Shown here: positions 19,278 through 33,702 of the stretch, piece after piece
How positions within the stretch are numbered: position 1 is the first letter of the stretch
How the letters are laid out: each line of letters starts with the position of its first letter
NCBI GenBank assembly: GCA_018667355.1
Contig: JABIVC010000016.1
Location: 175,762 to 239,761 of the forward strand
DNA from: Gammaproteobacteria bacterium
GTDB taxonomy: Bacteria; Pseudomonadota; Gammaproteobacteria; GCA-002705445; GCA-002716945
Direction of reading: 5' to 3'
Length of the DNA: 64,000 bases
Notes under the pieces: generated by a model
Told to the model about the DNA's origin: nothing
Seen by the model: only the letters and a program-made list of their open reading frames with translations
Database searches by the model: none
Made by a program: the position numbers and the translations under genes

Positions 19278-20393
19278 TTATTTTTTGAACCGTTTTAATG
19301 CGCTACCTGAACTCAGTACTTGGTTAACTTCTTTTGAACATGATTCGATACTATTATTAGTAACATGACTTAGAATTATGGTTGCACCATATAAAATACA
19401 GTCTCTCATAACACCATCAGATCCAGACAATGCATCCATTCCCATTTTTAGTGATTCTTTAGCTAAGTCTATTGGATTTACTTTTGTCTCAATTTTGTCA
19501 ATCGAAATATTTTTTTCAAACGAACTTGGTATTGTGACAGCTCGGACTTCTTGTTTAATATTTAAATCTATTTCTGGATTTATTTCTAATAATTCATTTT
19601 CATCTAGTATATTTTTATAATAATAAGCATTAGCCTTCTGTCTTAATGATGGTATTACGCCACCCTCTGTTCCACGAATAACAATTGAAGAATCAAAGTT
19701 TGCATTTCTAGCCAGCATTAAATAAATTGGAGGATATGGTTTATGCACATACCCTGTTACAAAATGATTTCTTTTTGAAATTAATGGGTTTGCTAAAACC
19801 TCTATAGTTGTAACAACAGGCCTTTTAATTATTTCTGTCCTCAGTTCCATTAGATTATTCAGTTGAGGAGAAAAAACTTTTTGGTCTATATAGCCCCAGC
19901 CTATATTTTTATCTTCTATCCTCTCTATAATTTGTTCATGAGTGGAGTACACATCTAATCCTAATAATTTAAAGATAGCATGATGTGTGCAGCCAAACTT
20001 TGGACCTACAGTCTTAACTCCTTGAGAAATAGATGGAATTCCGAGTTCTGCTAGAACGGGTAATATATATGCAGAAGATGGTATGTTTCTTGTAAAACCA
20101 TCATATGGATCAGCAATGTTCACAAGATTATCAACATTAACATCCATCTTTTTGACTGAATTTATCATAGCATCATGGACACCTAGATTTTCATCATGAG
20201 TCTCTCTTTTCATCCTAAGTGCGATTAAAAATATAGCTGAACGTACGTCGCTAATTTCTCCATTCAATATTGCAGACATGGATGCTTTGGCTTCCTCTCT
20301 GCTGATATTTTTACTAAGATCTGGACCAGTTGCTATTCTTTGAATAACTGATTTCATTAGTTCAGATGAAGTTATATTTTTTTTATCGGACAT
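19278..20393 (-). CDS. TrpD2/YbiB-like protein (glycosyltransferase family 3 fold with degenerate anthranilate-PRT active site)
   Basis: N-terminal helical domain ISREEAKASMSAILNGEISDVRSAIFLIALRMKRET matches the TrpD N-terminal domain. The GTGGD/KHGN catalytic motifs are replaced (ADPYDG...KTVGPKFG). Confidence 0.6.
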   Translation of the reverse strand: MSDKKNITSSELMKSVIQRIATGPDLSKNISREEAKASMSAILNGEISDVRSAIFLIALRMKRETHDENLGVHDAMINSVKKMDVNVDNLVNIADPYDGFTRNIPSSAYILPVLAELGIPSISQGVKTVGPKFGCTHHAIFKLLGLDVYSTHEQIIERIEDKNIGWGYIDQKVFSPQLNNLMELRTEIIKRPVVTTIEVLANPLISKRNHFVTGYVHKPYPPIYLMLARNANFDSSIVIRGTEGGVIPSLRQKANAYYYKNILDENELLEINPEIDLNIKQEVRAVTIPSSFEKNISIDKIETKVNPIDLAKESLKMGMDALSGSDGVMRDCILYGATIILSHVTNNSIESCSKEVNQVLSSGSALKRFKK

Positions 20394-20986
20394 TATTTAA
20401 AAACTATCCAAGTTGTTGCTATATATTTAATATCTTTTTTGAGTGTAACACCGCGATGTTCATGAGTCCAAAAAGGAGGAAACAGAATTAACTTTCCTGC
20501 TTCTGGTTTAATCTTTACATTTTGATGTAAAAATTCTGTTTCACCACCTGGGCCTATAACATCATTCAAGTACCAAATAGCAACCATTTGTCTATCACTA
20601 AATTGATGACTCCCGCTATCAATATGCCAGTGAAAAAATTCCCCTGGCTTTGTTCTCTGTACTGCATAACCAATATCTTTAAATGGTCCTGTAAAAAAAT
20701 CAAATTGCTTTTTTACTCCACTTAATGCCTTAGCTAAACTTGTGAAAAGTAAGTCATCAACATCTTTCCAGTTCTCTTTCCCGCTCACAACCATGTCAGT
20801 AGATTTTTTGATATCTAAATTCTCCTCAAATGTTTGTCCTACTCTTCCTTGATAATGATCTTCCTCAGAATCTTCAAATCTATTGATTATATCTAGACAG
20901 TCCTCACTAGAAATACTATTGGAAAATTCAAAAATAAAACTATTAGGTTTGACCTCTATTAATCTTTTGTCTAGCTGAATATCCAA
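20393..20986 (-). CDS. Fe(II)/2-oxoglutarate-dependent oxygenase (prolyl-4-hydroxylase-like superfamily)
   Basis: HWHIDSG (HxD) and distal FWTHEHRG His form a 2-His-1-carboxylate facial triad pattern. Translationally coupled (ATGA overlap) to the TrpD2-like gene. Confidence 0.6.
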   Translation of the reverse strand: MDIQLDKRLIEVKPNSFIFEFSNSISSEDCLDIINRFEDSEEDHYQGRVGQTFEENLDIKKSTDMVVSGKENWKDVDDLLFTSLAKALSGVKKQFDFFTGPFKDIGYAVQRTKPGEFFHWHIDSGSHQFSDRQMVAIWYLNDVIGPGGETEFLHQNVKIKPEAGKLILFPPFWTHEHRGVTLKKDIKYIATTWIVFK

Positions 20987-21068: not shown

Positions 21069-21629
21069 ATGGTAATAAGAATTAAAAGCAATTGGTCCAA
21101 GACCGTTAAACGGGAAAAAACTAGCGAAGATATAGCTAGTGCCTTATCTTATATTGGATGGAAATTATCACTTGATAAAGCGCGTAACCTCCATGGGGAC
21201 GACTTTGATTATTCTTCTGATCATCAGCGCATTACTGTTATCGTAGAATTTATGTCATTTCAGGTACATCTAGCCGATAGACTCTTATATCAGAGTAAAA
21301 AGACAGATGACTATAGAATATCAGTCATGAATAATCTAGGACAACAGTCTGCCAGGATAATGCAAGAAAATTGCGAGGATCTATTTGGCGATGGAAATTA
21401 TAGAGAGGGCTATATCAATACTCTTAATATAAGATCCGGGGAATATTCTCATTATGAATTTACAAAATCATCTGGAAATTATTCTCTTTATCGACATCTA
21501 GCTAAAAAAATACAAGATGCGATGGGATCTAGCCAGACTAATAAATGGGTTATGGACCAGATAGTCGATATAGATGCCGTAGAGATTTGTAAGAAGTTTA
21601 TAGAAGTTTACGAATCTTTAACCAAGTAA
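21069..21629 (+). CDS. Hypothetical protein
   Basis: 186 aa ORF with no motif I recognise. Divergent from the 2OG-oxygenase operon. Confidence 0.4.
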   Translation: MVIRIKSNWSKTVKREKTSEDIASALSYIGWKLSLDKARNLHGDDFDYSSDHQRITVIVEFMSFQVHLADRLLYQSKKTDDYRISVMNNLGQQSARIMQENCEDLFGDGNYREGYINTLNIRSGEYSHYEFTKSSGNYSLYRHLAKKIQDAMGSSQTNKWVMDQIVDIDAVEICKKFIEVYESLTK

Positions 21630-21638: not shown

Positions 21639-21833
21639 TTATTTTTTAAAATTTTTTGCGTTATTAATGGTCTTATTCTCGCCATCTTCATAGCCAGCTT
21701 CATAAGCATCACTGAGCCTTTGTTCTTCTATTTTAGGACTATTTTGATAACCTTCTTGCCAGCCTATAATATAATCATCAGACGCATTCATGTCTTCAAG
21801 TTCTGTTACTTTTTTAAAATAATCATTATTCAT
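21639..21833 (-). CDS. Small acidic hypothetical protein (64 aa)
   Basis: Last ORF of a tightly coupled minus-strand operon (ATGA overlap with the upstream 74 aa ORF). Confidence 0.35.
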   Translation of the reverse strand: MNNDYFKKVTELEDMNASDDYIIGWQEGYQNSPKIEEQRLSDAYEAGYEDGENKTINNAKNFKK

Positions 21834-22057
21834 TATGTTCTTATAGACCCCTTTAGTTCATGTGCAATGTCTACCAGACGGTTGGCTAACTTCTCATGCG
21901 TTTCTTTATATTCTTTTACAATGCCCACTGGATTTAAATGGATGTCTTTCTCGGTAACGCCAGTACTTCTCTCAAGCTCCATAAACTCTTTTTGAATTCT
22001 TAATAATGTCGCAATTATAGTTTTTCTTTCTTCTTCTAGTTTTTTAATATCACTCAT
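21833..22057 (-). CDS. Small coiled-coil hypothetical protein (74 aa)
   Basis: Predicted helical/coiled-coil protein (KLEEERKTIIATLLRIQKEFMELER). Its start overlaps the stop of the RspA-like gene. Confidence 0.4.
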   Translation of the reverse strand: MSDIKKLEEERKTIIATLLRIQKEFMELERSTGVTEKDIHLNPVGIVKEYKETHEKLANRLVDIAHELKGSIRT

Positions 22058-22407
22058 TAGTATCCACCTTTTCTCCTACTTTCTGGCAAGCCACCTATTC
22101 TACCAGCTTGTTTACTAGGATTACCAGGAAATAAGTCGAATAATGTTTTAGTATCAATTTTTTCACCCCACAACTTTCCTAAATCTTTGACCATGTTTCT
22201 AGTATTAGGCTGATTTTCTTTGTTATTGATGAACTCGTCTCTTAGGTAGTTAATTACGTCCCAGTGCCTTTCTGTTAGTTCTATTTCCTCTTGTATCGCA
22301 ATAACTTTGGCTATATCTTCATTCCAGTCTTCGAGCTTAACTAGAAAGCCTGTTTCAGATGTTTCGATTAATTGACCATTTACCTCTACTTTCATTGGAA
22401 GCTCCAT
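22057..22407 (-). CDS. DsrC/TusE-family protein lacking both conserved cysteines (RspA-like)
   Basis: MELPMKVEVNGQLIETSETGFLVKLEDWNEDIAK...DLFPGNPSKQAGRIGGLPESRRKGGY is collinear with DsrC, but CysB is Gly and the C-terminal GCV is GGY. Confidence 0.75.
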   Translation of the reverse strand: MELPMKVEVNGQLIETSETGFLVKLEDWNEDIAKVIAIQEEIELTERHWDVINYLRDEFINNKENQPNTRNMVKDLGKLWGEKIDTKTLFDLFPGNPSKQAGRIGGLPESRRKGGY

Positions 22408-22480: not shown

Positions 22481-23149
22481 TTAGTCTTCTTTGAAGTTTG
22501 GGACCGCATCTATTGACTTATGAGGTAACAATATTCCACATCCGTAAATTCTGCCACCTCCAATGCCTAAATCTTGAAGAAGTATAGAGTGTTCTTTAGA
22601 TAAATCAGCAATCATGAGGCTTCTTGTAAATTTATGTTTTCCCATTAAAATTATACTTTTTGTTTTGCCACATATAGCTTTTTTTATATGTATTCCATGC
22701 ACACTCAACTGATTTTTAATTTCTAATAGAAAATTTTCTTCTGTTTGATCAGGATCACAGAGAACAGATCTACAAATCAAATCTTTGACAACAAGGAATG
22801 GTTTCACAATAGATATGCCAATTTTTATATCATTTTTTAAAACATTTAGAGTAGAGCCTTCTATTAGCCGCACCTTATCAATATCAGTTTTAGGAATTCT
22901 TAATATAAGTCTAGTTCTTTTGGATAAAAATATTTGATCTTTTTCAGAGCGAACCCAACCATTCCCAAAATCAGGCCCATGAAGAGTATGAACACCGATA
23001 GATTTGTTTTCTAGCATCCAAGGAGCTAGATTAGTTATAGCATTTGATAATTCTGAAACATGGTCATATGGTAATATCTTACATTCAATTTTAAATGCAA
23101 CATCTGCCATCATAGATTTTTCTTCTACCTTTTCTTCTTCTTCCCACAT
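22481..23149 (-). CDS. Protein with Cas6e(CasE)-like C-terminal glycine-rich loop; putative RAMP/RRM-fold RNA-binding protein, no CRISPR context
   Basis: C-terminus SILLQDLGIGGGRIYGCGILLPHKS closely parallels the E. coli CasE C-terminus ALIDLVQQGIGPAKSMGCGLLSLAPL (G-rich loop GhG-x5-GCG-hL). An N-terminal PYDH motif is a possible catalytic-His region. Acidic N-terminal extension; the true start may be the MMADV Met. Confidence 0.45.
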   Translation of the reverse strand: MWEEEEKVEEKSMMADVAFKIECKILPYDHVSELSNAITNLAPWMLENKSIGVHTLHGPDFGNGWVRSEKDQIFLSKRTRLILRIPKTDIDKVRLIEGSTLNVLKNDIKIGISIVKPFLVVKDLICRSVLCDPDQTEENFLLEIKNQLSVHGIHIKKAICGKTKSIILMGKHKFTRSLMIADLSKEHSILLQDLGIGGGRIYGCGILLPHKSIDAVPNFKED

Positions 23150-23151
23150 AA

Positions 23152-23343
23152 TTATTTAATATAACTACTAAAAGCTGACTCTATTTTATCTTCCCAGTTT
23201 TCTGGTGTATCTGGGAATGGGGGTTTTAAATCAATCCTTATGAAAATTTCACCGTCTTTAGCTCTAATTTTAACTACTTCTAATAGCTCCTTAAAAGTTT
23301 CAATATCTTTTTCGTCTATAAGTAAACTGCTTAAATATAACAT
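23152..23343 (-). CDS. Small hypothetical protein (63 aa)
   Basis: Coupled on both sides, between the TauD-like and Cas6e-like genes. Confidence 0.35.
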   Translation of the reverse strand: MLYLSSLLIDEKDIETFKELLEVVKIRAKDGEIFIRIDLKPPFPDTPENWEDKIESAFSSYIK

Positions 23344-24191
23344 TACACTTCCATTCTCTTTTTAGATCTTAATCTATATAGGAGCCTATTCTTTTTTTCC
23401 AAATTTGTAAACGGTGTACGCATATGGATAACATTATTTGTTATAACGCCCTGCCCCTCTGTGAATTTATGTGTAATGTGGTATTCATCAGAATTATTAA
23501 CAATATTTTTTAGATTACTTGCAGCTTTTTGGGATTTATCATTCCACAATATATTTTTCTCTCTCATAGTGAATTTCATATGTAATTTGCCATTAATGAA
23601 TGAGAATATAGGACTGTCAACAGCCTTTCTCTGAGTGTGTGTATTTTCAGGGATTGTATATGTGTTATGTAACATTAAATCACTAATATTATTATAAGCT
23701 TCATTAAATAATATATATGCTATTTCATGATCCATATATTTATTCATACCACCACTTTCAGATTGTGTTCTACAGAATAAAATCCATGAGAGTATAAGGT
23801 TTTCATTATTATTATAATATCCATCCGTATGCCAATTCAGTTTTTTATTTGTATATGGAATATATTCAGCGTTTGATTGATGTTTACTGTGAATTTTGAT
23901 CTCTGTTAGGCCATCATCATCTGATTTTGAGTCTATCTCATAATTACCAAGTCCAATTTGGGACCCCATGATTTTTATGGCTGCTTTTAAATCCGTGGCT
24001 TCTTTATCTATCTGAAAAAAGACAATATTATGCTGATTTATTATGTTAGACATATATGTTTTTTCAGGTTTGGTAAGGGAGCTGGGATTGTTAATTTCCA
24101 CAATTAAATCATCGATTTTATTGGAAAATCTCTCTAGTTTTTTATCAGCCCAGAGTTTATAATCATTTCTAGGAATCTCAAGTATGTTCAT
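23343..24191 (-). CDS. TauD/TfdA-family Fe(II)/2-oxoglutarate dioxygenase
   Basis: WHTDGYY (HxD of the facial triad, as in TauD WHTD) and C-terminal ...NNVIHMRTPF (distal His and Arg that binds 2OG). First gene of the operon, divergent from dsrA. Confidence 0.6.
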   Translation of the reverse strand: MNILEIPRNDYKLWADKKLERFSNKIDDLIVEINNPSSLTKPEKTYMSNIINQHNIVFFQIDKEATDLKAAIKIMGSQIGLGNYEIDSKSDDDGLTEIKIHSKHQSNAEYIPYTNKKLNWHTDGYYNNNENLILSWILFCRTQSESGGMNKYMDHEIAYILFNEAYNNISDLMLHNTYTIPENTHTQRKAVDSPIFSFINGKLHMKFTMREKNILWNDKSQKAASNLKNIVNNSDEYHITHKFTEGQGVITNNVIHMRTPFTNLEKKNRLLYRLRSKKRMEV

Positions 24192-24322
24192 TGGATTTAA
24201 TGCCTATTTAGTACTTGTAAGTTATTTTAAATAAATGCTATATTGTTTATCCATAGACATATATTAGTAAATAATGATAATATAATAAACATTATATATC
24301 ATAAATAGCGGGGAGCTATACA

Positions 24323-25576
24323 TTGAAAAAGCACGATACACCAATGTTAGATGAACTAGAAAACGGGCCATGGCCTAGTTTTATTAGTGGGATTAAGAGA
24401 CTAAGAGACTCTCATCCTGAAGAAAGAATTAATGAAATGACAAATGACTTATTGGGTCAATTAGAACATTCATATGAGACAAGAAAAGGTTATTGGAAAG
24501 GCGGTACTGTAAGTGTTTATGGTTATGGCGGCGGAATAATACCTCGTTTCTCAGAGGTAGGTGATGCGTTTCCTAAATCTAAAGAATTTCATACACTACG
24601 CGTACAACCTCCTGCTGGGAATTTCTATACAACGGACATACTTAGAAAAATGGCTGATAGCTGGGAAAAATATGGCTCAGGGTTAGTTACTTTTCATGGC
24701 CAAACTGGAAATATTATGTTTATAGGGTCAACTTCTGATGCTACCCAACATTTTTTTGACGAAATCAATGAATATGGTTTTGATTTAGGTGGAGCTGGAC
24801 CATGCGTTAGAACAGCAATGTCATGTGTTGGTGCTGGAAGATGTGAAATGTCCAACATCAATGAACATAAAGCTCATAGGTTGCTAGTAAATAATTTTAT
24901 AGATGATATGCATAGACCTGCATTACCATATAAATTTAAATTCAAGGTTTCTGGATGTGCAAATGATTGTATGAATTCTATTGAAAGAGCAGACATGTCA
25001 ATTATTGGGACATGGAGAGATGACATTAAAATTGACCAAAAAGAATTTAAAGAATATGTTGAATTAAAAGGAAGAAAGCATGTAATAGATAATATTATTA
25101 CAAGGTGCCCAACAAATGCTATTTCTCTAAACGATGATGATACAGTGTCTATAGATAATCAAAATTGCGTAAAATGTATGCATTGCTTAAATGTAGTTCC
25201 AAAAGCTCTTCATCCTGGTGATGATAAGGGAGCTACTGTATTAATGGGTGGTAAAAGAACTCTTAAAATTGGTGACTTAATGGGAACTGTGATTGTCCCA
25301 TTTATGAAACTAGAATCACAAGAAGACTGGGATAGGCTAGTTGAAATTGCTGAGGAATCAATAGATTTCTGGGCAGATAATGCTCTTGAGCATGAAAGAT
25401 GTGGTGAGATGATTGAAAGAATCGGCCTTGTAAACTTTTTAGAAGGCATAGGAATTGATGTAGATCCAAATATGGTTGGAAATCCAAGGGAATCTAGTTA
25501 TTTTAGAGGTGATGGATGGGACGGCGAAGCAGTCAAGTGGTATGAACGCGCAGATGCGGATAAGGATTCTGCTTAA
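24323..25576 (+). CDS. dsrA: Dissimilatory sulfite reductase alpha subunit (reverse/oxidative type)
   Basis: TTG start at 24323 (RBS GGGAG 7 nt upstream) gives MKKHDTPMLDELENGPWPSFISG, collinear with DsrA N-termini. Sirohaem and [4Fe-4S] Cys clusters (CVGAGRC...C) and ferredoxin-like CPTNA...C. Confidence 0.9.
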   Translation: MKKHDTPMLDELENGPWPSFISGIKRLRDSHPEERINEMTNDLLGQLEHSYETRKGYWKGGTVSVYGYGGGIIPRFSEVGDAFPKSKEFHTLRVQPPAGNFYTTDILRKMADSWEKYGSGLVTFHGQTGNIMFIGSTSDATQHFFDEINEYGFDLGGAGPCVRTAMSCVGAGRCEMSNINEHKAHRLLVNNFIDDMHRPALPYKFKFKVSGCANDCMNSIERADMSIIGTWRDDIKIDQKEFKEYVELKGRKHVIDNIITRCPTNAISLNDDDTVSIDNQNCVKCMHCLNVVPKALHPGDDKGATVLMGGKRTLKIGDLMGTVIVPFMKLESQEDWDRLVEIAEESIDFWADNALEHERCGEMIERIGLVNFLEGIGIDVDPNMVGNPRESSYFRGDGWDGEAVKWYERADADKDSA

Positions 25577-25590
25577 AGAGAAATAAAATT

Positions 25591-26679
25591 ATGACAGAAG
25601 TTAAAGAAAAAAAACAACAAAGATCACCAATAGAAACTGGTGCACCAGATGGTTTCCAATATATGCATCCAACAATGCGTAAAAATTTTGGTCAATGGAA
25701 ATGGCATGATCATCCAAGACCGGGAGTCTTGAGGCATGCGGCAAACAGCGGCGACGAGATATGGACAGTTAGAGCTGGAACTCAAAGAATTTTGGATGTA
25801 TTCACTTTACGTACATTATGTGACATTGGTGACAAGTATGCAGATGGTTTTGTGAGATTTACAATAAGAAGTAACATTGAGTATATGGTCAAAGATGCAT
25901 CTAAAGTTGACCCATTGATTGAAGCACTTGAAAAAGAAGGTTTTATTGTAGGTGGTACTAAAAATAGTGTTGCTATGATATCTCATACACAAGGATGGTT
26001 GCATTGTGATATTCCAGGAACAGATGCCTCCGGTGTTGTTAAAGCAATGATGGATGAATTAATAAATGAATTTAAGAACAATGATATGCCTAATAGAGTG
26101 CATATGACTACATCATGTTGCCAAATTAATTGTGGAGGTCAGGGAGACATAGCAATTAACATACAGCATACTAAGCCACCTAAAATAAACCATGATTTAG
26201 TATCAAATGTGTGTGAAAGACCTAGTGTTGTTGCTAGATGTCCTGTAGCAGCAATCAGACCAGCAATGGTAAATGGTAAAGCTTCATTAGAGGTTGATGA
26301 AAAGAAATGTATATGTTGCGGAGCTTGTTTCCCACCATGTCCACCAATGCAAATAAATGATCCAGAGCATAGTAAATTAGCTATATGGGTTGGTGGTAAT
26401 CACTCAAATGCACGTAGTAAGCCAACATTCCAAAAACTAGTGGCAGCTGGAATACCAAATAATCCCCCAAGATGGCCAGAGGCTACTGCAATTGTTAAGA
26501 AAATTCTTAAAAAGTATAAAGAAGATGCTAAAGATTGGGAACGCATCAATGATTGGATTGAGAGAATTGGCTGGCCAAGATTCTTTGAGCTCACTGAATT
26601 ACCATTTACTAAATATCACATTGATAATTGGCGTGGTGGTAGAAAGACCCTAAACTCATCTACCTACATTAGATTTTAA
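25591..26679 (+). CDS. dsrB: Dissimilatory sulfite reductase beta subunit
   Basis: Sulfite reductase beta Cys motifs (TSCCQINCGG, CPVAAIRP, CICCGACFPPCPP). Directly downstream of dsrA. Confidence 0.9.
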   Translation: MTEVKEKKQQRSPIETGAPDGFQYMHPTMRKNFGQWKWHDHPRPGVLRHAANSGDEIWTVRAGTQRILDVFTLRTLCDIGDKYADGFVRFTIRSNIEYMVKDASKVDPLIEALEKEGFIVGGTKNSVAMISHTQGWLHCDIPGTDASGVVKAMMDELINEFKNNDMPNRVHMTTSCCQINCGGQGDIAINIQHTKPPKINHDLVSNVCERPSVVARCPVAAIRPAMVNGKASLEVDEKKCICCGACFPPCPPMQINDPEHSKLAIWVGGNHSNARSKPTFQKLVAAGIPNNPPRWPEATAIVKKILKKYKEDAKDWERINDWIERIGWPRFFELTELPFTKYHIDNWRGGRKTLNSSTYIRF

Positions 26680-26692
26680 ACAAGGACTGTTT

Positions 26693-27085
26693 ATGTTATT
26701 CGGTATACTAGTTAACGAAGGACCTTATCAGCATCAAGCTTCAGATAGCGCATACTTATTTGCAAAAGCAGCCATAGAAGAAGGCCATACTATTTTTCGA
26801 GTTTTTTTTTATCATGATGGAGTCAATAATGGTACTAGACTAGCAACTCCTCCTCAAGATGATAGACACATTCCTAATAGATGGTCAGAGTTAGCTCAAG
26901 AACATGAAATTGATTTAGTTCTATGTGTTGCAGCTGCCCAAAGAAGGGGTATGGTTGACCCAGATGAAATGAAGAGACATAAAAAAGACGCAGATAATAT
27001 TGCAGATAAATTTAGAATATCAGGTCTAGGACAGCTTATAGAAGCTGGCGTGCAAGCAGATCGGCTGATAACTTTTGGTGATTAA
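26693..27085 (+). CDS. dsrE: Sulfurtransferase DsrE
   Basis: 130 aa DsrE/DsrF-like fold, first of the dsrEFH triplet following dsrAB. Contains the conserved Cys in LCVAAAQ. Confidence 0.85.
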   Translation: MLFGILVNEGPYQHQASDSAYLFAKAAIEEGHTIFRVFFYHDGVNNGTRLATPPQDDRHIPNRWSELAQEHEIDLVLCVAAAQRRGMVDPDEMKRHKKDADNIADKFRISGLGQLIEAGVQADRLITFGD

Positions 27086-27469
27086 ATGGAAGATGAATTA
27101 GAAAGTGGTGTTGTAAAAAAATTTCTCTATGTCAATAGAAGAGCTCCACATGGAACAGTCTATGCACATGAAGCGCTTGAGGTTGTTCTAATTGGTGCTG
27201 CGTTTGAGCAAGATGTTAGCTTAGCCTTTATAGATGATGGTGTTTTCCAACTAAAAAAAGAACAAGATACATCTGAAATTTATACAAAAAACTTTTCTAA
27301 GATTTATGCCGCTCTTGAAATGTATGACGTTGAAAAGCTTTACGTAGACAAGGATTCATTAGAGTCTAGAGGTTTAACGGAGAATGATTTATCAGTAGAT
27401 GTTAAAGTTATCGATAGTAAAGAGATGACTAAACTTATAGTAGATAGCGAGGTTATATTTAATTTCTAA
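27086..27469 (+). CDS. dsrF: DsrF
   Basis: 127 aa DsrE/F family protein. Its start abuts the dsrE stop. Confidence 0.8.
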   Translation: MEDELESGVVKKFLYVNRRAPHGTVYAHEALEVVLIGAAFEQDVSLAFIDDGVFQLKKEQDTSEIYTKNFSKIYAALEMYDVEKLYVDKDSLESRGLTENDLSVDVKVIDSKEMTKLIVDSEVIFNF

Positions 27470-27771
27470 TGTTACATACAGTAAATAAATCACCATTTGA
27501 AAAAAATAGCCTAGATACTTGTTTAAGGTTAATAGATGATAGTTCGTCAGTACTTCTGATAGAAGATGCTGTATATGGCGCACTCGAGAATACAAGTATT
27601 TCTGATAAAATAAAAAAAGCGCAACAAGCAACTAAGTTTTATGTATTAGGCCCAGATTTAAAAGCTAGAGGGCTTGATAAAAGTTCTCTAATCTCTAATA
27701 TAGAGGTTATAGATTACAAGGGTTTTGTTACATTAACGGTAGAAAATGATAAAATTCAAAACTGGTTATAA
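27469..27771 (+). CDS. dsrH: DsrH
   Basis: 100 aa DsrH/TusB-like protein. ATG overlaps the dsrF stop (TAATG). Confidence 0.8.
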   Translation: MLHTVNKSPFEKNSLDTCLRLIDDSSSVLLIEDAVYGALENTSISDKIKKAQQATKFYVLGPDLKARGLDKSSLISNIEVIDYKGFVTLTVENDKIQNWL

Positions 27772-27787
27772 ATTAGAGGAGTAAATT

Positions 27788-28120
27788 ATGCCTATAGAAG
27801 TAAACGGAAAATCTTTTGAAACAGATGAAGAAGGGTATCTAGCCGATCTTAGCCTCTGGGAAAAAGACTTAGCTACAGCAATGGCTAAAGAAGATGATAT
27901 TGAACTTGGTGATGATCACTGGGAAATTATTAATTTTCTTCGTGAATACTATGAGGAGTATCAAATAGCCCCAGCTGTTAGGGTATTAACAAAGGCTGTT
28001 GGTAAAAAACTTGGCAAAGATAAAGGTAATAGTAAATACTTATATGAGCTATTCCCATATGGTCCAGGTAAACAAGCATGTAAATTTGCAGGGCTTCCAA
28101 AACCAACTGGTTGCGTATAA
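27788..28120 (+). CDS. dsrC: Sulfur carrier DsrC (both reactive cysteines present)
   Basis: C-terminus GKQACKFAGLPKPTGCV with CysB and penultimate CysA; 110 aa. Confidence 0.9.
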   Translation: MPIEVNGKSFETDEEGYLADLSLWEKDLATAMAKEDDIELGDDHWEIINFLREYYEEYQIAPAVRVLTKAVGKKLGKDKGNSKYLYELFPYGPGKQACKFAGLPKPTGCV

Positions 28121-28152
28121 CCTTTATACCAATTATAAGGAGAGATTAAGGT

Positions 28153-28890
28153 ATGTCATTTGTGACCATATTCTATGGAATATCATTTTATGTGGCTACC
28201 TTGATTCTATTTATAGGCCTAGCATATAGAATATATGAATATTCTATAATACCAGCCCCATTAAAAATCCCGACTCCACCGGCACCTAAAACAAAAAAGG
28301 GTGTTGCAATAAGATTATTTCGTGAAGTAGTATTTTTTGAAAGCTTATTCTCAGCTACCAAATGGACATGGTTGTTTGGATGGTTATTTCATTTTGCACT
28401 TTTACTTGCAGCTTTTAGACATCTGAGATATTTCACTGATCCGGTATGGTTTTGGGTTTCTTGGGAAATTGTTCAAGCTGCAGGGCATTATGCTGGATAT
28501 ATGATGTTATTTGGGTTGTTAGGTTTGCTAGGCAGAAGGATTTTTGTTGATAGGGTAAGGTATATTTCTAACCCATCTGATTACTTAATGTTAATACTAA
28601 TCATTTCCATTGCATTCACAGGGCTATTAATGAAGTGGTTTCATACAGATATTTATGCAGTAAAAATGTTCTTCATTGGTCTCATGTATTTCCAATGGTC
28701 TGAACTACCTAGTGATTTTGTCTTATTATTACATCTTTCTCTTGTACTGCTTTTAATGATAATATTTCCATATAGTAAATTATTGCATGCACCAGGATTA
28801 TTTTTTAGTCCTACGAGAAATCAAACAGACAATGCACGCGATCAGAGACACATAGCTGATTGGGCAAAAAGAATAGAATCAAAAAAATAG
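28153..28890 (+). CDS. dsrM: DsrM, membrane dihaem cytochrome b (NarI-like)
   Basis: Five predicted TM helices with conserved His pairs. Position after dsrC. Confidence 0.85.
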   Translation: MSFVTIFYGISFYVATLILFIGLAYRIYEYSIIPAPLKIPTPPAPKTKKGVAIRLFREVVFFESLFSATKWTWLFGWLFHFALLLAAFRHLRYFTDPVWFWVSWEIVQAAGHYAGYMMLFGLLGLLGRRIFVDRVRYISNPSDYLMLILIISIAFTGLLMKWFHTDIYAVKMFFIGLMYFQWSELPSDFVLLLHLSLVLLLMIIFPYSKLLHAPGLFFSPTRNQTDNARDQRHIADWAKRIESKK

Positions 28891-28897
28891 GGATATT

Positions 28898-30397
28898 ATG
28901 GCAGTAAAAGAATTTAAAAAACCTACTTTGAAAGAGTACTCATCGATTCCAAAGTTAGTGGAATCTGCTACTTCACATTTAGCACCATTTAAATCTAAAG
29001 AAGATTTTCAAAAGTCACTAGGATATCCAGGTGAATTAGTTGATAACTGGGAAGAAGTTGCTCTAGATAAAATGGGTGATTTATTGAAAAAATATCGTTC
29101 TCTCAGAGTTTATATGGATTCATGTATTCAATGTGGAGCTTGTACTGATAAGTGTCATTATTATTTAGGAACTAAAGATCCTAATAATATGCCTGTTGGT
29201 AGACAGAATCTAATGCGTGGCGTATATCGTAAGCATTTTACACTACCAGGAAAATATTTTCCTAAACTTGTTGGTGCAGTGGACCTTACAAAAGAAGTTT
29301 TGGACGACTGGTATTCATATTATCATCAATGTTCTCAATGCCGAAGATGTGCTGTCTTTTGTCCAATAGGAATTGACACTGCAGAAATCTCAATGGCAGC
29401 AAGGGAAATAATGGACTCTATTGGTGTTGGACAAAAATATTGCAATGAAATAATTGGGAAAGTTCATAAAATAGGTAATAACTTAGGCTTACCCAAGCCT
29501 GCCCTTGCAGACACACTGGAAGGACTAGAGGAAGATGTAGAAGAAGAAATAGGTGTAGATGTCAAGTTCCCGTTAGATGTTAAAGGTTCTGATGTATTAC
29601 TAGTCACCCCCTCAGCAGATTTTTTTGCTGAGCCTCATGTTGACGGCTTGATAGGCTATGCAAAAGTTTTTCATCAGGCAGGGATTAGCTGGACATTGAG
29701 TTCTCATGCAAGTGAAGCAGCAAATTTTGGAATGTTTATTGGTAGCTACGACAATATGAAAAAGTTAGCGCTTAGGATTCGTGAGGCTGCGTTAGATTTA
29801 GGTGTCAAAAGAATAGTATTTGGGGAGTGTGGACATGCATGGAGAGTTGCATATAGTTTTTTAAATACATTAGCAGGCCCATTTGATTTTCTAGATTCAA
29901 AATATCCTGTACCGCAACATATATGTGAAGTAACGCATGACCTTATTAATAAAAATGTATTACAGTTTGATAAAACCGCTAATGATGGAAAAATTATTAC
30001 ATTTCATGATTCTTGTAATGTAGCGAGAGCATCAAATATGGGTGATATCATGGGTGGACAATTTAGTCTTCCGAGAGACATTATAAAGGCTACAACAAAT
30101 AATTTTTATGACATGGATACAGAGACAATCATGGAGAAAACATTCTGTTGTGGCGGTGGTGGAGGCCTTCTAACAGATGATTTAATAGAACTGAGAATGA
30201 AAGGTGCTCAACCAAGAATGGAAGCTTTAAAAAGAGTTGTTGAGGACCATGGAGTGACCCATATGGCAGCAATATGCGCTATTTGCAAGAGTCAGTTTTC
30301 AAAGGCATTCCAGTATTATGGGTTTGAATTAGATCAAATTATAAGCCTTCATCAACTTGTTGGTGATGCCTTGATAATGAACAAAAAAGAGCTTTAG
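28898..30397 (+). CDS. dsrK: DsrK, HdrD-like iron-sulfur subunit with CCG domains
   Basis: Ferredoxin motifs CIQCGACTDKC and CSQCRRCAVFCP, plus CCG-type Cys-rich region (TFCCGGGGG, CAICK). Confidence 0.85.
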   Translation: MAVKEFKKPTLKEYSSIPKLVESATSHLAPFKSKEDFQKSLGYPGELVDNWEEVALDKMGDLLKKYRSLRVYMDSCIQCGACTDKCHYYLGTKDPNNMPVGRQNLMRGVYRKHFTLPGKYFPKLVGAVDLTKEVLDDWYSYYHQCSQCRRCAVFCPIGIDTAEISMAAREIMDSIGVGQKYCNEIIGKVHKIGNNLGLPKPALADTLEGLEEDVEEEIGVDVKFPLDVKGSDVLLVTPSADFFAEPHVDGLIGYAKVFHQAGISWTLSSHASEAANFGMFIGSYDNMKKLALRIREAALDLGVKRIVFGECGHAWRVAYSFLNTLAGPFDFLDSKYPVPQHICEVTHDLINKNVLQFDKTANDGKIITFHDSCNVARASNMGDIMGGQFSLPRDIIKATTNNFYDMDTETIMEKTFCCGGGGGLLTDDLIELRMKGAQPRMEALKRVVEDHGVTHMAAICAICKSQFSKAFQYYGFELDQIISLHQLVGDALIMNKKEL

Positions 30398-30470
30398 AGC
30401 TATAGTTCTTGTGATATAATTATCCAATATTAGAGAAGAATAATAAACTTATATAAAGTGTGAGATAATT

Positions 30471-32444
30471 ATGACTAAGCTAGAAAAAACTGTAAATGCA
30501 ATGAAAGAAGAAAGCACCTTCAGAAGATATGAAGAAGGTGATCACCAATATTCTGACTTCTCAAAACAAATATTTAATGAGGATACCTCTCATAAATGTC
30601 CAACTTATATTCACAAAACTCCTCCATGTCAAGGTAGTTGCCCGTCTGGCGAAGATATACGTGGATGGCTACAAATTGTAAGAGGCATTGAAAAAGCACC
30701 TGAGGGAATGAGTATGTCTGAATATGCTTTTAGGCGTTCTACTACTGCTAACCCGTTCCCATCACAAATGGGTAGAGTTTGCCCAGCTCCTTGTCAAAGT
30801 GGTTGTAACAGGAATGAAGTAGATGATTATGTTGGTATTAATGCCGTAGAACAATTTATTGGTGACAAAGCTTTTAAAGAAAATTATAAATTTGATTCTG
30901 CCCCAAAACTACTTAAACAAAGAGTAGCTATTATAGGTGGTGGACCAGCTGGATTATCTGCTGCTTTTCAACTACGAAAAATGGGCTATGCCTCAACAAT
31001 TTTTGAAGAACGTGAGGACTTGGGAGGGATGATGCGTTACGGAATCCCTAATTATAGAACACCGCGTGATATATTAGATGCAGAAATTAAACGCATACTT
31101 GATTTAGGTGATATTGAAGTGGTTCTGAATAAAAGAGTTGGAAAAGATATACCAATGGAAGAAGTTGAAAGTGCTTATGATGCAGTATTATGGACTATAG
31201 GTTGTTGGAATGGAAAGGCATTACCTATCGAAGGCAGTGATGCTGAAAATTGTCTAAGTGGTGTAGCTTTTTTAGAAGCTTTTTGCCAAGGTAGATTAAA
31301 AGTTGGGTCTAAAAAGGTTGTATGCGTTGGTGGCGGTGATACTTCGATTGATGTGGTGTCAGTTGCAAGAAGGCTAGGGCATATTTCAACTATGAATCCA
31401 CAAGAAAGCCCAGAAGCAATTGTACATGGTTATGTCGCGCAGGACGTCTCAGAGTCAGCGATGAAAGAAGGTGCCGAGGTTACACTAACGTCACTATTCC
31501 AAAAAGAAGAAATGACAGCTGCAGAACAAGAAGTTAATGACGCCATACATGAAGGAGTAACAATAATTAACAGTGTTATTCCGGTAAGAGTAGAAAAAGA
31601 TGATAATAATCGAGCTACAGCATTAATAATTGCTAAATGTACTTTTGAAGATAATAAGCCAGTTCCTGTCGAAGGTTCAGAGCAAAGAATCGAAGCAGAC
31701 TTAATTGTTTCTGCAATAGGCCAGTCACCCGATATAGAAGGCCTTGAGGCTCTTGGTAATGAGCATGGTTTTTTTGACATTGATGATTTTTATAGACACA
31801 AGACAAAAGAAGGACATTTTGTTGCCGGAGATATAGTGAGGCCACATCTATTGACAACTGCAATCGGTCAGGGATCAATAGCATCACAATCTATAAAAAG
31901 TTTTTTTGAAAATAAAGATTTTAAACGTAGACCTAAAGTAGATGTGCACCATTTTAATTTATTAGATAAATTAAGAGAAACAGATCAACAACCTGCTGAG
32001 TATAAGGCAGTAATTGAGGATCCTGATTTATTAAGAGGAACTGATAATAGTAACGCGGTTGTTCATAATTACGAGGATCGTTCTTCACAAGAAGTAATCC
32101 CTTCTACAGAATTATTTTTAGGACATTTTGATCATGAAGACCGAGTCAAAAGAGGAGAAGCTGTTCCTTCTGGTGATGATGTGATAGATCATTATGAAGA
32201 TAGAATAATTGGTCTTACAGAAGAAGATGCAATCAAAGAAGCTTCAAGATGCATGAGTTGTGGGATGTGTTTTGAGTGTGATAATTGTGTAATCTACTGT
32301 CCTCAAGATGCAGTTTTTCGTGTCAAAAAAGATGAATCTACAATGGGTAGATACGTTGATACTGATTATGATAAATGTATTGGGTGTCATATTTGCGCAG
32401 ATGTTTGTCCAACTGGATATATAAAAATGGGTCTAGGCGAATAA
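30471..32444 (+). CDS. dsrL: DsrL, NAD(P)H:acceptor oxidoreductase (GltD-like with C-terminal ferredoxin domain)
   Basis: N-terminal Fe-S Cys motifs, IIGGGPAGLSAA FAD fold, second NAD(P) fold VCVGGGDTSIDV, and C-terminal CMSCGMCFECDNCVIYCP / CIGCHICADVCP. Confidence 0.85.
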   Translation: MTKLEKTVNAMKEESTFRRYEEGDHQYSDFSKQIFNEDTSHKCPTYIHKTPPCQGSCPSGEDIRGWLQIVRGIEKAPEGMSMSEYAFRRSTTANPFPSQMGRVCPAPCQSGCNRNEVDDYVGINAVEQFIGDKAFKENYKFDSAPKLLKQRVAIIGGGPAGLSAAFQLRKMGYASTIFEEREDLGGMMRYGIPNYRTPRDILDAEIKRILDLGDIEVVLNKRVGKDIPMEEVESAYDAVLWTIGCWNGKALPIEGSDAENCLSGVAFLEAFCQGRLKVGSKKVVCVGGGDTSIDVVSVARRLGHISTMNPQESPEAIVHGYVAQDVSESAMKEGAEVTLTSLFQKEEMTAAEQEVNDAIHEGVTIINSVIPVRVEKDDNNRATALIIAKCTFEDNKPVPVEGSEQRIEADLIVSAIGQSPDIEGLEALGNEHGFFDIDDFYRHKTKEGHFVAGDIVRPHLLTTAIGQGSIASQSIKSFFENKDFKRRPKVDVHHFNLLDKLRETDQQPAEYKAVIEDPDLLRGTDNSNAVVHNYEDRSSQEVIPSTELFLGHFDHEDRVKRGEAVPSGDDVIDHYEDRIIGLTEEDAIKEASRCMSCGMCFECDNCVIYCPQDAVFRVKKDESTMGRYVDTDYDKCIGCHICADVCPTGYIKMGLGE

Positions 32445-33696: not shown

Positions 33697-33702
33697 ATCA
33701 TT

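What the first reader, a model, noticed from the sequence alone, without database searches (positions are those of the whole stretch)
22481..23149. Cas6e(CasE)-like signature in an orphan protein with no CRISPR array or other cas genes
The C-terminal 25 residues (SILLQDLGIGGGRIYGCGILLPHKS) reproduce the CasE glycine-rich loop and flanks (E. coli CasE: ALIDLVQQGIGPAKSMGCGLLSLAPL). An N-terminal PYDH segment is positioned like the CasE catalytic-His region. No repeat-spacer array or cas1/cas2/cas3/cas7 is visible anywhere in the 64 kb. A Cas6-fold endoribonuclease recruited to a non-CRISPR role, next to a DsrC-family protein, would be novel.
Basis: partly seen in the sequence, partly recalled or inferred. 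Interest (0 to 1): 0.7.

Follow-up and report, generated by a model that had tools for sequence, protein, structure and literature searches.

The report
CRISPR-less Cas6 homolog in dsr loci
The gene encodes a real Cas6-type protein (a CRISPR RNA-processing fold) that has no CRISPR system around it and is instead a conserved neighbour of the sulfur-oxidation (dsr) genes in hundreds of sulfur-oxidising bacteria, so a CRISPR part seems to have been reused in energy metabolism.

Summary
The 222-aa ORF at 22481-23149(-) is real and belongs to the Cas6 superfamily. It matches Pfam PF09559 at E=1e-48. Its AlphaFold model (pLDDT 90) is closest to the type I-B CAST Cas6 (TM 0.74). It sits in the Cmx6/"I-MYXAN" branch, not Cas6e.

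It is not an orphan. Relatives were found in at least 581 species genomes, mostly sulfur-oxidising Gammaproteobacteria. In 60 of 70 informative loci the gene lies divergently upstream of dsrABEFHCMKL. It is translationally coupled to a 63-aa partner and usually followed by a cysteine-less DsrC homolog (RspA type). This holds down to 29% identity.

I found no CRISPR array in 89 related loci or the window, and no core cas genes where I looked. The dsr-linked proteins form a clade separate from the cyanobacterial CRISPR-linked Cas6 proteins sampled and have their own motifs (LPxDH, an SGNGWxRP insert, PHK).

The function is inferred, not shown. Most likely the protein binds or processes RNA and is co-regulated with dsr. 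No RNA target was found. A conserved palindrome in the dsrA promoter region behaves like a DNA operator. No paper in the searchable library links Cas6 to dsr.

The parts
22481..23149 (-). Cas6-like gene (Cas6L), 222 aa, Cmx6/PF09559 branch of the Cas6 superfamily, dsr-linked clade
   Evidence: ORF. PF09559 E=1.4e-48. TIGR02807 101 bits. 8fcj_B E=5.5e-10. AF2 pLDDT 89.7 and Foldseek TM 0.74 to 8fcu_B. Clade-specific motifs.
23152..23343 (-). 63-aa acidic partner protein (sm63). Its stop codon lies 2 nt before the Cas6L ATG, and its ATG overlaps the stop of the TauD-like gene.
   Evidence: ORF coordinates. Found directly upstream of Cas6L in at least 65 of 80 species loci, including loci far from dsr. 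Strongly conserved DTPxxWE motif. In L092 the equivalent 72-aa gene is Pfam DUF6967. No fold match in PDB. pI 4.56.
23343..24191 (-). TauD/TfdA-family 2-oxoglutarate/Fe(II) dioxygenase-like gene, first gene of the module
   Evidence: PF02668 E=6e-15. Present in 49 of 70 loci with enough upstream sequence.
22057..22395 (-). DsrC/TusE-family protein without the two C-terminal cysteines (RspA type). Its C-terminus ...AGLPxSxRKGGY is invariant. The gene call is 112 aa; the longest ORF runs to 22407.
   Evidence: PF04358 E=4.5e-32. TIGR03342 97 bits. Within 1.5 kb of Cas6L in 65 of 75 loci. C-terminal RKGGY in all 72 homologs. The RspA name comes from PMC8477390.
22408..22480 (-). Cas6L-rspA intergenic region with a promoter-like site TGGACA-17-TAGAAT (22461-22433) that overlaps the conserved block TAGTATATTAGAATTTTC
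   Evidence: The 18-nt block is identical in L004, whose Cas6L is 52-54% identical. Promoter scan. The motif is present in this intergenic region in 12 of 12 marine-clade loci. The RNA fold is not better than shuffles, z=0.27.
21833..22057 (-). 74-aa conserved small protein (sm74)
   Evidence: Homologs in 41 loci; no Pfam or NCBIfam family.
21639..21833 (-). 64-aa 'Alvin_2107 family globule sulfur oxidation protein'
   Evidence: NF049856 at 82.5 bits, cutoff 60. Recurs in the loci.
21069..21629 (+). 186-aa conserved protein of unknown family (p186)
   Evidence: No family hit. Recurs next to the module in many loci.
20393..20986 (-). 2OG-Fe(II) oxygenase (PF13640)
   Evidence: Pfam E=1.2e-12. 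Matches the PADLOC 'Cas-associated 2OG' profile at E=2.2e-17. Recurs in the loci.
19278..20393 (-). TrpD2/YbiB-like protein (glycosyl transferase family 3 N-terminal domain)
   Evidence: PF02885. NF006005 'DNA-binding protein YbiB' at 97 bits, below its cutoff, and PRK07394 at 137 bits. Recurs in the loci.
24192..24322 (.). Divergent intergenic/promoter region between the TauD-sm63-Cas6L operon and dsrA
   Evidence: Coordinates. The marine clade shares the block ATATTAG(A/T)A-N-ATGATA...ATAATA oriented toward dsrA. GC-richer relatives carry the palindrome TATCCC-N4-GGGATA here.
24323..36643 (+). Oxidative-type dsr operon dsrABEFHCMKLJOPN plus an IscA-like dsrR
   Evidence: dsrA 600.7 bits, dsrB 543.6 bits and DsrO 271.6 bits are all above their cutoffs. 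DsrJ, DsrP, CobB-like DsrN and an IscA-like protein are also detected. Pfam calls for DsrE/F/H/C/M/K/L.

Best explanation
The gene encodes a CRISPR-independent member of the Cas6 superfamily. It belongs to a distinct, vertically conserved clade of the Cmx6/PF09559 branch that is an accessory gene of oxidative-type dsr (reverse dissimilatory sulfite reductase) loci.

Shown: it is made from an operon transcribed divergently from dsrA (TauD-like, 63-aa partner, Cas6L). It is followed by a cysteine-less DsrC homolog (RspA type) and other conserved small genes, including an Alvin_2107-family 'sulfur globule oxidation' protein.

Inferred: Cas6L keeps the Cas6 RNA-binding face. This comprises the G-rich loop, Arg84/Arg127/Arg176 and Gln192, which it shares with CRISPR-linked relatives, plus a clade-specific near-invariant His30 at the usual catalytic position. 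It probably acts with the 63-aa protein as a sequence- or structure-specific RNA-binding or RNA-cleaving factor. It would then tune expression or stability of sulfur-oxidation transcripts after transcription. Transcription of the module and of dsrA would be coordinated through shared operators in the divergent promoter region.

My confidence that it is a dsr-linked, non-CRISPR Cas6 homolog is about 0.9. My confidence that it acts on RNA is about 0.35-0.4.
For: Family and fold.

Conserved context: the same gene order at 52-55% identity. At least 581 species genomes carry a relative. Of the 80 species loci fetched, 60 of 70 informative ones have divergent dsrA within 3.5 kb, 65 of 75 have an RspA-like gene, and at least 65 of 80 have sm63. 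The most distant representatives, at 29-30% identity, still sit beside dsrAB with a small upstream gene.

Independence from CRISPR: no arrays in 89 loci plus the window, and no core cas in the window. Among the 25 listed of 136 PADLOC families matched in the ten loci not next to dsr, there is no core cas family. In contrast, the CRISPR-type relative in Rippkaea sits in TniQ-Cas6-DevT(Cas8)-two unassigned ORFs (323 and 212 aa, presumably Cas7/Cas5) with a 3-repeat array.

Separate clade: 23% mean identity between the two groups, a clean NJ bipartition, and motifs DH/GNGW/PHK in 68-80% of dsr-type representatives (and in at least 96% of the close marine relatives) against about 0-2% of CRISPR-type ones.

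Retained RNA-binding elements: R84, Q192, G195, G197 and G205 are invariant, and R127 and R176 are at least 90% conserved, across both clades. His30 is at least 90% conserved within the dsr clade.

Translational coupling follows from the coordinates.
Against: No RNA target was found. The intergenic RNAs of the window fold no better than shuffles and there is no Rfam match.

The best hairpin candidate is TATCCC-N4-GGGATA in the dsrA leader of relatives. Its half-site variants are equally frequent on either arm (11 against 11). That fits a DNA operator and would leave A-C mismatches in an RNA read from either strand.

The dsr-type proteins have lost the basic character of CRISPR Cas6: median pI is 6.45-7.6 against 9.15. 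The window protein's core (residues 14-211) is still basic, at 9.19.

Catalysis, RNA binding and any effect on dsr expression are untested.

Whole genomes could not be scanned for distant CRISPR loci.
Confidence: 0.55

Rival explanations
1. Cas6L has lost RNA function. It serves as a protein-binding scaffold, chaperone or sensor in the Dsr system. For example, it might hold the invariant RKGGY arm of the RspA-type DsrC homolog, the 63-aa partner, or DsrAB/DsrEFH, using only the double-ferredoxin fold.
For: pI shifted from about 9.2 in CRISPR-type proteins to 6.5-7.6 in dsr-type proteins. The clade gained an acidic N-terminal extension (MWxEE...) and a 10-residue SGNGWxRP insert absent from CRISPR-type proteins. 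It is strictly coupled to small acidic proteins: sm63 pI 4.56 and RspA pI 4.96. No RNA element was found.
Against: The G-rich loop and the conserved Arg/Gln residues shared with CRISPR-linked Cas6 remain under strong constraint across a clade that has diverged to about 22-35% identity. A His at the canonical catalytic position is gained and conserved. The core of the window protein is still basic, pI 9.19.
Confidence: 0.28
2. Cas6L is the factor that recognises the conserved palindrome TAYCYC-N4-GRGRTA in the dsrA/module promoter region. It would bind it either as double-stranded DNA or as the corresponding RNA stem-loop in the dsrA 5' leader. This would make it the direct regulator of a sulfur-oxidation regulon.
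For: The palindrome, allowing up to 2 mismatches, occurs in 47 of 72 dsrA-upstream regions. I estimate about 0.1 exact matches expected by chance in the 1.6 Mb searched. L092 has a second copy upstream of tusA, cytochrome c and a flavocytochrome c sulfide dehydrogenase (FCSD)-family flavoprotein gene. A variant lies upstream of sm63-Cas6L in Parabeggiatoa, where dsr is not adjacent. A 6-bp stem with a 4-nt loop resembles Cas6 substrates; the CRISPR repeat in L090 has a short stem and tetraloop.
Against: Half-site variants are symmetric, so no single transcribed strand keeps the pairing: 11 loci would have A-C mismatches either way. The window's own marine clade lacks the palindrome (best match 3 or more mismatches) yet keeps Cas6L. 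DNA binding by a Cas6 has no precedent. The locus holds better DNA-binding candidates, namely the RspA-type DsrC homolog and the YbiB-like protein.
Confidence: 0.1
3. It is an ordinary cas6 that has moved away from its CRISPR-Cas locus and still processes crRNA from an array elsewhere in the genome.
For: Cas6 genes are known to lie outside or at the edge of cas operons (PMC1462988). PGAP names the protein Cas6/Cmx6. Whole genomes could not be scanned here.
Against: Synteny with dsrA, sm63 and RspA is conserved across at least 581 species and down to 29% identity. The clade is separate from the CRISPR-linked relatives sampled and has its own insertions, deletions and motifs. No array was found in about 1.6 Mb of flanking sequence. 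The carriers include streamlined AT-rich marine genomes; the window is 32.7% GC.
Confidence: 0.04

Closest known systems
Cas6 of type I-B / 'I-MYXAN' systems (Cmx6; Pfam PF09559, TIGR02807), e.g. the Cas6 subunit of the type I-B CAST Cascade (PDB 8FCJ/8FCU chain B)
   Same: Same Pfam and NCBIfam family, above the curated cutoffs. Same length (about 220 aa). Same double-RRM fold (TM 0.74, 25% identity). Same G-rich loop GxGxxxxxGCG and shared Arg/Gln positions.
   Different: No Cas8/Cas7/Cas5, TniQ or CRISPR array nearby. It forms a separate clade at about 23% identity. It has LPxDH instead of PLDNGY, gains an N-terminal MxWxE extension and an SGNGWxRP insert, lacks the DGTPQRRQ insert, ends in PHK-x-I, and has near-neutral instead of basic pI.
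Cas6e (CasE/Cse3) of type I-E Cascade
   Different: No Cas6e profile match at E<=10. Structural similarity is only TM 0.37-0.47. No type I-E genes nearby.
CRISPR-Cas components reused outside adaptive immunity: Tn7-like CAST systems, array-less 'Cascade-only' type IV/U modules (PMC3150331), and the Myxococcus xanthus dev (Cas8/Cas7/Cas5) developmental regulators (the last from my own knowledge)
   Same: Cas proteins of the same general subtype family recruited to a non-defence or array-independent role.
   Different: Those cases keep a multi-subunit Cascade and usually a guide RNA. Here only the Cas6 subunit survives, and it is embedded in a core energy-metabolism locus.
DsrR and DsrS of Allochromatium vinosum, dsr-encoded proteins reported to affect dsr expression post-transcriptionally (from my own knowledge of Grimm et al. 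2010/2011; not retrievable here)
   Same: Accessory, non-catalytic genes of oxidative dsr clusters with a proposed post-transcriptional regulatory role. An IscA-like dsrR is present in this window.
   Different: Unrelated folds. No Cas6-like protein has been named among the dsr genes in any paper I could search.

Membership tests
Cas6e / CasE / Cse3 (type I-E) | Sequence-profile match to the Cas6e family (Pfam CRISPR_assoc/Cse3, TIGR01907) | tested here: not met
   No such family listed at E<=10 in Pfam or NCBIfam. phmmer against PDB finds only the type I-B Cas6, not Cas6e chains.
Cas6e / CasE / Cse3 (type I-E) | Closest structural neighbours are Cas6e structures | tested here: not met
   Cas6e/Cse3 chains rank 11th or lower with TM 0.37-0.47. 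The type I-B Cas6 has TM 0.74.
Cas6e / CasE / Cse3 (type I-E) | Encoded with cse1, cse2, cas7, cas5, cas3 and a type I-E CRISPR array | tested here: not met
   No array and no core cas genes in the 64-kb window. The rest of the genome is not testable here.
Cas6 superfamily, Cmx6/PF09559 branch | Profile match above the curated cutoff over the full length | tested here: met
   PF09559 at 165.9 bits (cutoff 26.7), residues 16-212 on profile positions 2-191 of 191. TIGR02807 at 101 bits (cutoff 98.85), only just above. PADLOC Cas6 E=1.8e-55.
Cas6 superfamily, Cmx6/PF09559 branch | Two RRM/ferredoxin-like domains with a C-terminal glycine-rich loop | tested here: met
   AF2 model at pLDDT 89.7 with two beta-alpha-beta-beta-alpha-beta units. 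All significant PDB matches are Cas6 proteins. GIGGGRIYGCG occupies residues 195-205.
Cas6 superfamily, Cmx6/PF09559 branch | Functional association with a CRISPR array and effector cas genes (what makes it 'CRISPR-associated') | tested here: not met
   0 of 89 related loci and the window have an array. The neighbours are dsr and accessory genes. A CRISPR-type relative does show Cas8 (DevT) and an array.
Cas6 superfamily, Cmx6/PF09559 branch | Metal-independent endoribonuclease activity on a repeat-derived RNA | not testable with these tools
   Only indirect evidence: conserved His30, Arg84/127/176 and the G-loop. No substrate was identified.
Accessory genes of oxidative-type dsr clusters | Conserved physical linkage to dsrAB together with dsrEFH and dsrL (markers of the oxidative type) across lineages | tested here: met
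   60 of 70 informative species loci have divergent dsrA within 3.5 kb, followed by dsrBEFHCMKL. Linkage is retained at 29-30% identity. The exceptions are mainly Beggiatoaceae/Thiotrichaceae and Arenicellales, where the sm63-Cas6L pair persists (in L020 and L034 sm63 was detected in only one of the two tables, probably because of overlapping or short ORFs).
Accessory genes of oxidative-type dsr clusters | Requirement for sulfur oxidation or co-expression with dsr | not testable with these tools
   Only suggestive evidence: a shared divergent promoter region with conserved motifs and an Alvin_2107-family gene in the same module.

The most novel reading that the evidence does not exclude
A whole clade of Cas6 proteins has been taken out of CRISPR immunity (or predates it). 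With a 63-aa partner, it works as an RNA-binding or RNA-cleaving regulator of dissimilatory sulfur oxidation. It would process or stabilise dsr or other sulfur-oxidation transcripts in most sulfur-oxidising Gammaproteobacteria, including abundant marine lineages. That would be the first Cas6 with a housekeeping role in core energy metabolism. It would also add a missing post-transcriptional layer to dsr regulation.
Probability: 0.3. Interest if true: 0.85.

Novelty: new variant of a known kind. Interest (0 to 1): 0.65.

Why it matters
For CRISPR biology: a solitary Cas6 kept under strong selection for a non-defence job in hundreds of species would be a clear case of a Cas protein being reused. 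It might instead be a relic of the pre-CRISPR ancestry of RAMP proteins. It also shows that database labels such as 'type I-MYXAN CRISPR-associated protein Cas6/Cmx6' wrongly suggest a CRISPR system in these genomes. The neighbouring 63-aa protein is likewise mislabelled 'sulfur relay protein DsrC'.

For sulfur microbiology: the module sm63-Cas6L-RspA, with or without the TauD-like gene, the ~235-aa protein (p235) that many loci carry between sm63 and Cas6L, and the Alvin_2107-like gene, is as conserved next to dsrAB as some named dsr genes. Yet it appears in no paper I could search. It gives concrete candidates, and candidate operators, for the poorly understood regulation of stored-sulfur oxidation. 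Some carriers are globally abundant marine sulfur oxidisers. Others can be cultured (Halochromatium glycolicum DSM 11080, Lamprobacter modestohalophilus DSM 25653).

Tried and rejected
1. Cas6e membership. No profile hit and a poor structural match.

2. CRISPR arrays. TRF, the repeat finder and a custom k-mer scan over the window and 89 loci found none. The one window hit is a 54-nt coding tandem repeat at 5126-5285.

3. Other cas genes. A PADLOC scan of 67 window ORFs found only generic helicase or ABC-ATPase matches. The ten loci without dsr adjacency gave no core cas among the 25 families listed out of 136 matched, so this is not a complete exclusion.

4. RNA partner in the window. Rfam at E<=1 gave only noise. 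Folds of six intergenic regions were no better than shuffles. There were no meaningful inverted repeats.

5. RNA hairpin hypothesis for TATCCC-N4-GGGATA. Rejected as the preferred reading because the variant half-sites are symmetric: 11 arms are wobble-compatible on one strand and 11 on the other. The one fully compensated variant (TATGCC/GGCATA, L091) also fits a co-evolving dimeric DNA-binding protein.

6. ATATTAGAA motif. It is not enriched in the window by count. Only its conservation at syntenic positions is meaningful.

7. sm63 fold. The model is confident (pLDDT 86) but has no PDB neighbour.

8. The extra ~235-aa protein (p235) that 31 loci carry between sm63 and Cas6L. It is not a RAMP: hhalign against Cas6L gives probability 0.1%, and there is no PDB, Pfam or NCBIfam hit.

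9. Phage-borne copies. None in IMG/VR.

10. Literature. Ten searches found no paper linking Cas6 to dsr or rDsr. The A. vinosum omics papers could not be retrieved.

11. A fold search against the AlphaFold database was not available.
Full report
**1. The observation**

The minus-strand ORF at 22481-23149 encodes 222 aa. It has the quoted C-terminus SILLQDLGIGGGRIYGCGILLPHKS and an N-terminal LPYDH segment.

The resemblance is not chance.
- Pfam PF09559 'Cas6' matches residues 16-212 end to end at E=1.4e-48.
- NCBIfam TIGR02807 (cas6_cmx6, 'type I-MYXAN') scores 101 bits, just over its cutoff of 98.85.
- PADLOC Cas6 models reach E=1.8e-55.
- The only solved structure found by sequence is the Cas6 of a type I-B CAST Cascade, 8fcj_B, at E=5.5e-10.

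An AlphaFold2 model built on 27 homologs has mean pLDDT 89.7 and shows two beta-alpha-beta-beta-alpha-beta units. Foldseek against the PDB returns Cas6 proteins for all 38 top hits. 8fcu_B/8fcj_B lead at TM 0.74. Cas6e/Cse3 structures reach only TM 0.37-0.47. No Cas6e profile is hit at E<=10.

So the Cas6 fold and the G-rich loop are real. The protein belongs to the Cmx6/PF09559 branch, and the loop motif is common to the whole superfamily rather than specific to Cas6e.

**2. No CRISPR system in the window**

Tandem-repeat and direct-repeat searches find no repeat-spacer array. The only regular repeat is a 54-nt coding repeat at 5126-5285.

A PADLOC scan of 67 ORFs finds Cas6 models only for this gene. 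The weak 'Cas3' matches (E about 1e-9 to 1e-11) all come from one 561-aa SF2 helicase at 3693-5378. That protein matches many unrelated helicase families better.

**3. What surrounds the gene**

The window carries a complete oxidative-type dsr operon on the plus strand, 24323-36643. It comprises dsrA and dsrB (600.7 and 543.6 bits, above cutoffs), dsrEFH, dsrC, dsrMK, dsrL, dsrJOP, a CobB-like dsrN and an IscA-like dsrR.

Transcribed divergently from dsrA, 131 nt away, are these genes:
- a TauD-family dioxygenase-like gene (23343-24191);
- a 63-aa ORF (sm63, 23152-23343), whose ATG overlaps the TauD-like stop and whose stop lies 2 nt before the Cas6L ATG;
- Cas6L;
- after a 73-85-nt spacer with its own promoter-like site, a DsrC-family protein that lacks both C-terminal cysteines (RspA type);
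- a 74-aa protein;
- a 64-aa protein of the NCBIfam 'Alvin_2107 family globule sulfur oxidation protein' (82.5 bits, cutoff 60).

Further on lie a 186-aa protein, a 2OG-Fe(II) oxygenase, a TrpD2/YbiB-like protein, a Rieske ferredoxin, a one-cysteine TusE-like protein and a DUF4396 protein.

**4. The gene is not an orphan**

The identical protein occurs on 51 contigs of marine metagenomes and MAGs. NCBI already labels it 'type I-MYXAN CRISPR-associated protein Cas6/Cmx6'.

Relatives at 52-55% identity have the same gene order from dsrL to DUF4396. A scan of one genome per GTDB species returned at least 581 species with a relative. The 80 best include Halochromatium, Lamprobacter, Thiothrix, Thiolinea, Thioploca, Thiomargarita, Marithrix, Parabeggiatoa, Sedimenticola, Acidiferrobacterales, Ectothiorhodospiraceae and Arenicellales.

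I mapped the window's proteins onto all ORFs of these loci.
- 60 of 70 loci with at least 3.5 kb upstream have dsrA on the opposite strand within 3.5 kb, followed by dsrBEFHCMKL.
- 65 of 75 have the RspA-type gene within 1.5 kb.
- At least 65 of 80 have sm63 immediately upstream.
- 49 of 70 have the TauD-like gene.
- 31 of 80 have an additional conserved protein of about 235 aa between sm63 and Cas6L.

That extra protein is not a RAMP and has no known family.

The ten loci without adjacent dsr are mostly Beggiatoaceae/Thiotrichaceae and Arenicellales. There the sm63-Cas6L pair generally persists among housekeeping genes. In L020 and L034 sm63 was detected in only one of the two tables, probably because of short or overlapping ORFs.

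Representatives from an exhaustive search of 1.84 billion cluster representatives gave 698 clusters at E<=1e-3. Those at only 29-30% identity still sit beside dsrAB with a small upstream gene. In one case that small gene is Pfam DUF6967.

None of the 89 loci held at that point, nor the window, contains a CRISPR array. No core cas family appears among the PADLOC families listed for the ten non-dsr loci, although only 25 of 136 matched families were shown. No copy was found on viral contigs.

**5. Relation to CRISPR-linked Cas6**

I retrieved cyanobacterial homologs of the 8FCJ Cas6. One of them, in Rippkaea orientalis PCC 8801, lies in a TniQ-Cas6-DevT(Cas8) locus. Two unassigned ORFs of 323 and 212 aa (presumably Cas7 and Cas5) and a 3-repeat array follow it.

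In a joint alignment the two groups share F19, R84, F140, Q192, G195, G197 and G205 in every sequence. They share D16, P27, P43, R127, V129, R176, L183, S188, C204, F207 and P209 in at least 90%.

The dsr-linked group differs systematically.
- It has an N-terminal MxWxE extension.
- It has LPxDH where the CRISPR group has PLDNGY.
- It has a 10-residue SGNGWxRP insertion.
- It lacks an 8-residue DGTPQRRQ insertion.
- It ends in GCGxFxPHKxI.

These motifs are present in 68-80% of 138 dsr-type representatives and in 0-2% of 114 CRISPR-type proteins. Mean identity between the groups is 23%. A neighbour-joining tree separates them by a single long branch. Only cyanobacterial CRISPR-type sequences were sampled, and the tree is unrooted.

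His30 of LPxDH is at least 90% conserved and lies at the start of helix 1. In other Cas6 families the catalytic His lies in this region; that point rests on my own knowledge.

**6. Search for a mechanism**

For RNA binding:
- The G-rich loop and the Arg/Gln positions shared with bona fide crRNA-binding Cas6 have been kept across a clade that has diverged to about 22-35% identity.
- A His is fixed at the catalytic position.
- The core of the window protein is basic, pI 9.19.

Against RNA binding:
- The clade as a whole is near-neutral, with median pI 6.45-7.6 against 9.15 for the CRISPR-type.
- I could not find an RNA partner. Rfam gave nothing.
- Intergenic RNAs fold no better than shuffled controls.
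- No conserved non-coding block accompanies sm63-Cas6L where it stands alone.

The most interesting candidate was a perfect palindrome, TATCCC-N4-GGGATA. It occurs exactly in 14 dsrA-upstream regions and with up to two mismatches in 47 of 72. I estimate about 0.1 exact matches expected by chance in the 1.6 Mb searched. Its shape, a 6-bp stem with a 4-nt loop, recalls Cas6 substrates.

The single-mismatch variants argue otherwise. Eleven keep G-U pairing on one strand, eleven on the other, and one on neither. The same variant half-sites (GAGATA, GGGGTA) appear on either arm. That is what a homodimeric DNA-binding protein would produce, not a hairpin in one transcript.

The palindrome also occurs upstream of tusA, a cytochrome c gene and a flavocytochrome c sulfide dehydrogenase (FCSD)-family flavoprotein gene in L092. 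That fits an operator of a sulfur-oxidation regulon.

The window's AT-rich marine clade lacks the palindrome. It shares a different element, ATATTAGAA. This lies about 60 nt upstream of the dsrA start in most of the marine-clade loci (about 30 nt in L006 and about 100 nt in L011). In the window's own dsrA leader it reads ATATTAGTA, one mismatch. It also lies in the Cas6L-rspA spacer, where it overlaps a TGGACA-17-TAGAAT promoter-like site. It recurs as ATATTAGRA a few bases upstream of a TTGAC (-35-like) box in Halochromatium and other GC-rich loci.

These elements show that the module and dsrA share regulatory DNA. They do not identify what Cas6L binds.

**7. Conclusion and novelty**

Firmly established: this is a Cas6-superfamily protein of a distinct clade. 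It is conserved as part of oxidative dsr loci and unaccompanied by CRISPR-Cas in every locus examined.

Inferred, with modest confidence: it still acts on RNA, together with the 63-aa partner, and serves post-transcriptional control of sulfur-oxidation genes.

The main rival is that it has become a protein-binding scaffold within the Dsr system.

Ten full-text searches found no paper connecting Cas6 with dsr or rDsr. Early CRISPR surveys note only that Cas6-family genes are 'often encoded outside' cas operons (PMC1462988).

I rate it a new variant of a known kind. It is interesting both to CRISPR evolution and to sulfur-oxidation biology, and it can be tested directly in cultured carriers.

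Noticed in passing
window 22057-22395 (-); homologs in 72 loci: The DsrC-family protein next to Cas6L lacks both redox cysteines (RspA type). It ends in an invariant ...AGLPxSxRKGGY, and the last five residues RKGGY are identical in every homolog examined. A strictly conserved Tyr-terminated arm in place of the Cys-bearing DsrC arm suggests a specific but unknown role, such as docking into DsrAB or another enzyme, or being modified.
   Followed up: partly
L029, L036, L039, L041-L043, L046, L052, L059, L061, L076, L078, L087, L092 and others: dsrA-upstream intergenic regions; L092:3587-3602: A conserved palindrome, TATCCC-N4-GGGATA (degenerate form TAYCYC-N4-GRGRTA), lies in the divergent dsrA/module promoter region of 47 of 72 loci (up to 2 mismatches). 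A second copy lies upstream of tusA, cytochrome c and FCSD-family genes in L092. The symmetric half-site variation points to an operator for a dimeric regulator of sulfur-oxidation genes. It is absent from the window's marine clade.
   Followed up: partly
window 22433-22461 (-), 24255-24263 (+) (ATATTAGTA) and 30427-30435 (+); L004, L006, L008, L010-L018; L029, L030, L041, L051: The motif ATATTAGAA (ATATTAGRA) is conserved at syntenic positions. It lies upstream of rspA, where it overlaps TGGACA-17-TAGAAT, and upstream of dsrA in the marine clade. In Halochromatium and other GC-rich loci it lies just upstream of a TTGAC box. A near copy (ATATTAGAG) lies in the dsrK-dsrL spacer of the window. 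It is not enriched by simple count in the AT-rich window.
   Followed up: partly
window 23152-23343 (-): NCBI names the 63-aa partner protein 'sulfur relay protein DsrC' in several records. It has no DsrC/TusE profile match and has a different predicted fold (three helices plus short strands). This looks like a propagated mis-annotation.
   Followed up: partly
window 21639-21833 (-): The 64-aa protein belongs to NCBIfam NF049856, 'Alvin_2107 family globule sulfur oxidation protein'. This ties the module to a family that NCBI names for oxidation of sulfur globules.
   Followed up: no
L026:9288-9992, L078:9269-9988, L029:9228-9986 and 28 other loci: In 31 of 80 species loci a strongly conserved protein of about 235 aa sits between sm63 and Cas6L. 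Its motifs include ALGQGIWLAVTFP and DETPDDADGAAVAA. It has no Pfam, NCBIfam or PDB relative and is absent from the window's clade.
   Followed up: partly
window 20393-20986 (-) and 19278-20393 (-): A PF13640 2OG-Fe(II) oxygenase matches PADLOC's 'Cas-associated 2OG' profile (E=2e-17), and the same profile hits 4 ORFs in the ten loci without adjacent dsr. Next to it is a TrpD2/YbiB-like protein, whose family includes a DNA-binding protein. Both recur near the module in many genomes. One possibility, not tested, is that the 'Cas-associated' label for 2OG oxygenases partly stems from loci like these.
   Followed up: no
window 5126-5285 (+), inside ORF 3693-5378: A 54-nt tandem repeat (3 copies, 99% identical) lies in the C-terminal part of a 561-aa DEAD-box-type helicase gene. 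This gene is the source of the weak 'Cas3' PADLOC matches.
   Followed up: no
L019:10745-12423 (+): In Candidatus Marithrix a Septu-like defence pair (PtuA/PtuB; AAA_21 ATPase) lies immediately downstream of the stand-alone sm63-Cas6L pair. This is probably a coincidental insertion.
   Followed up: no
window 18646-19002 (-): A third DsrC/TusE-family gene in the window keeps only one C-terminal cysteine (...GQQACKIAG...). It lies in a sub-cluster with a Rieske ferredoxin and a DUF4396 membrane protein.
   Followed up: no
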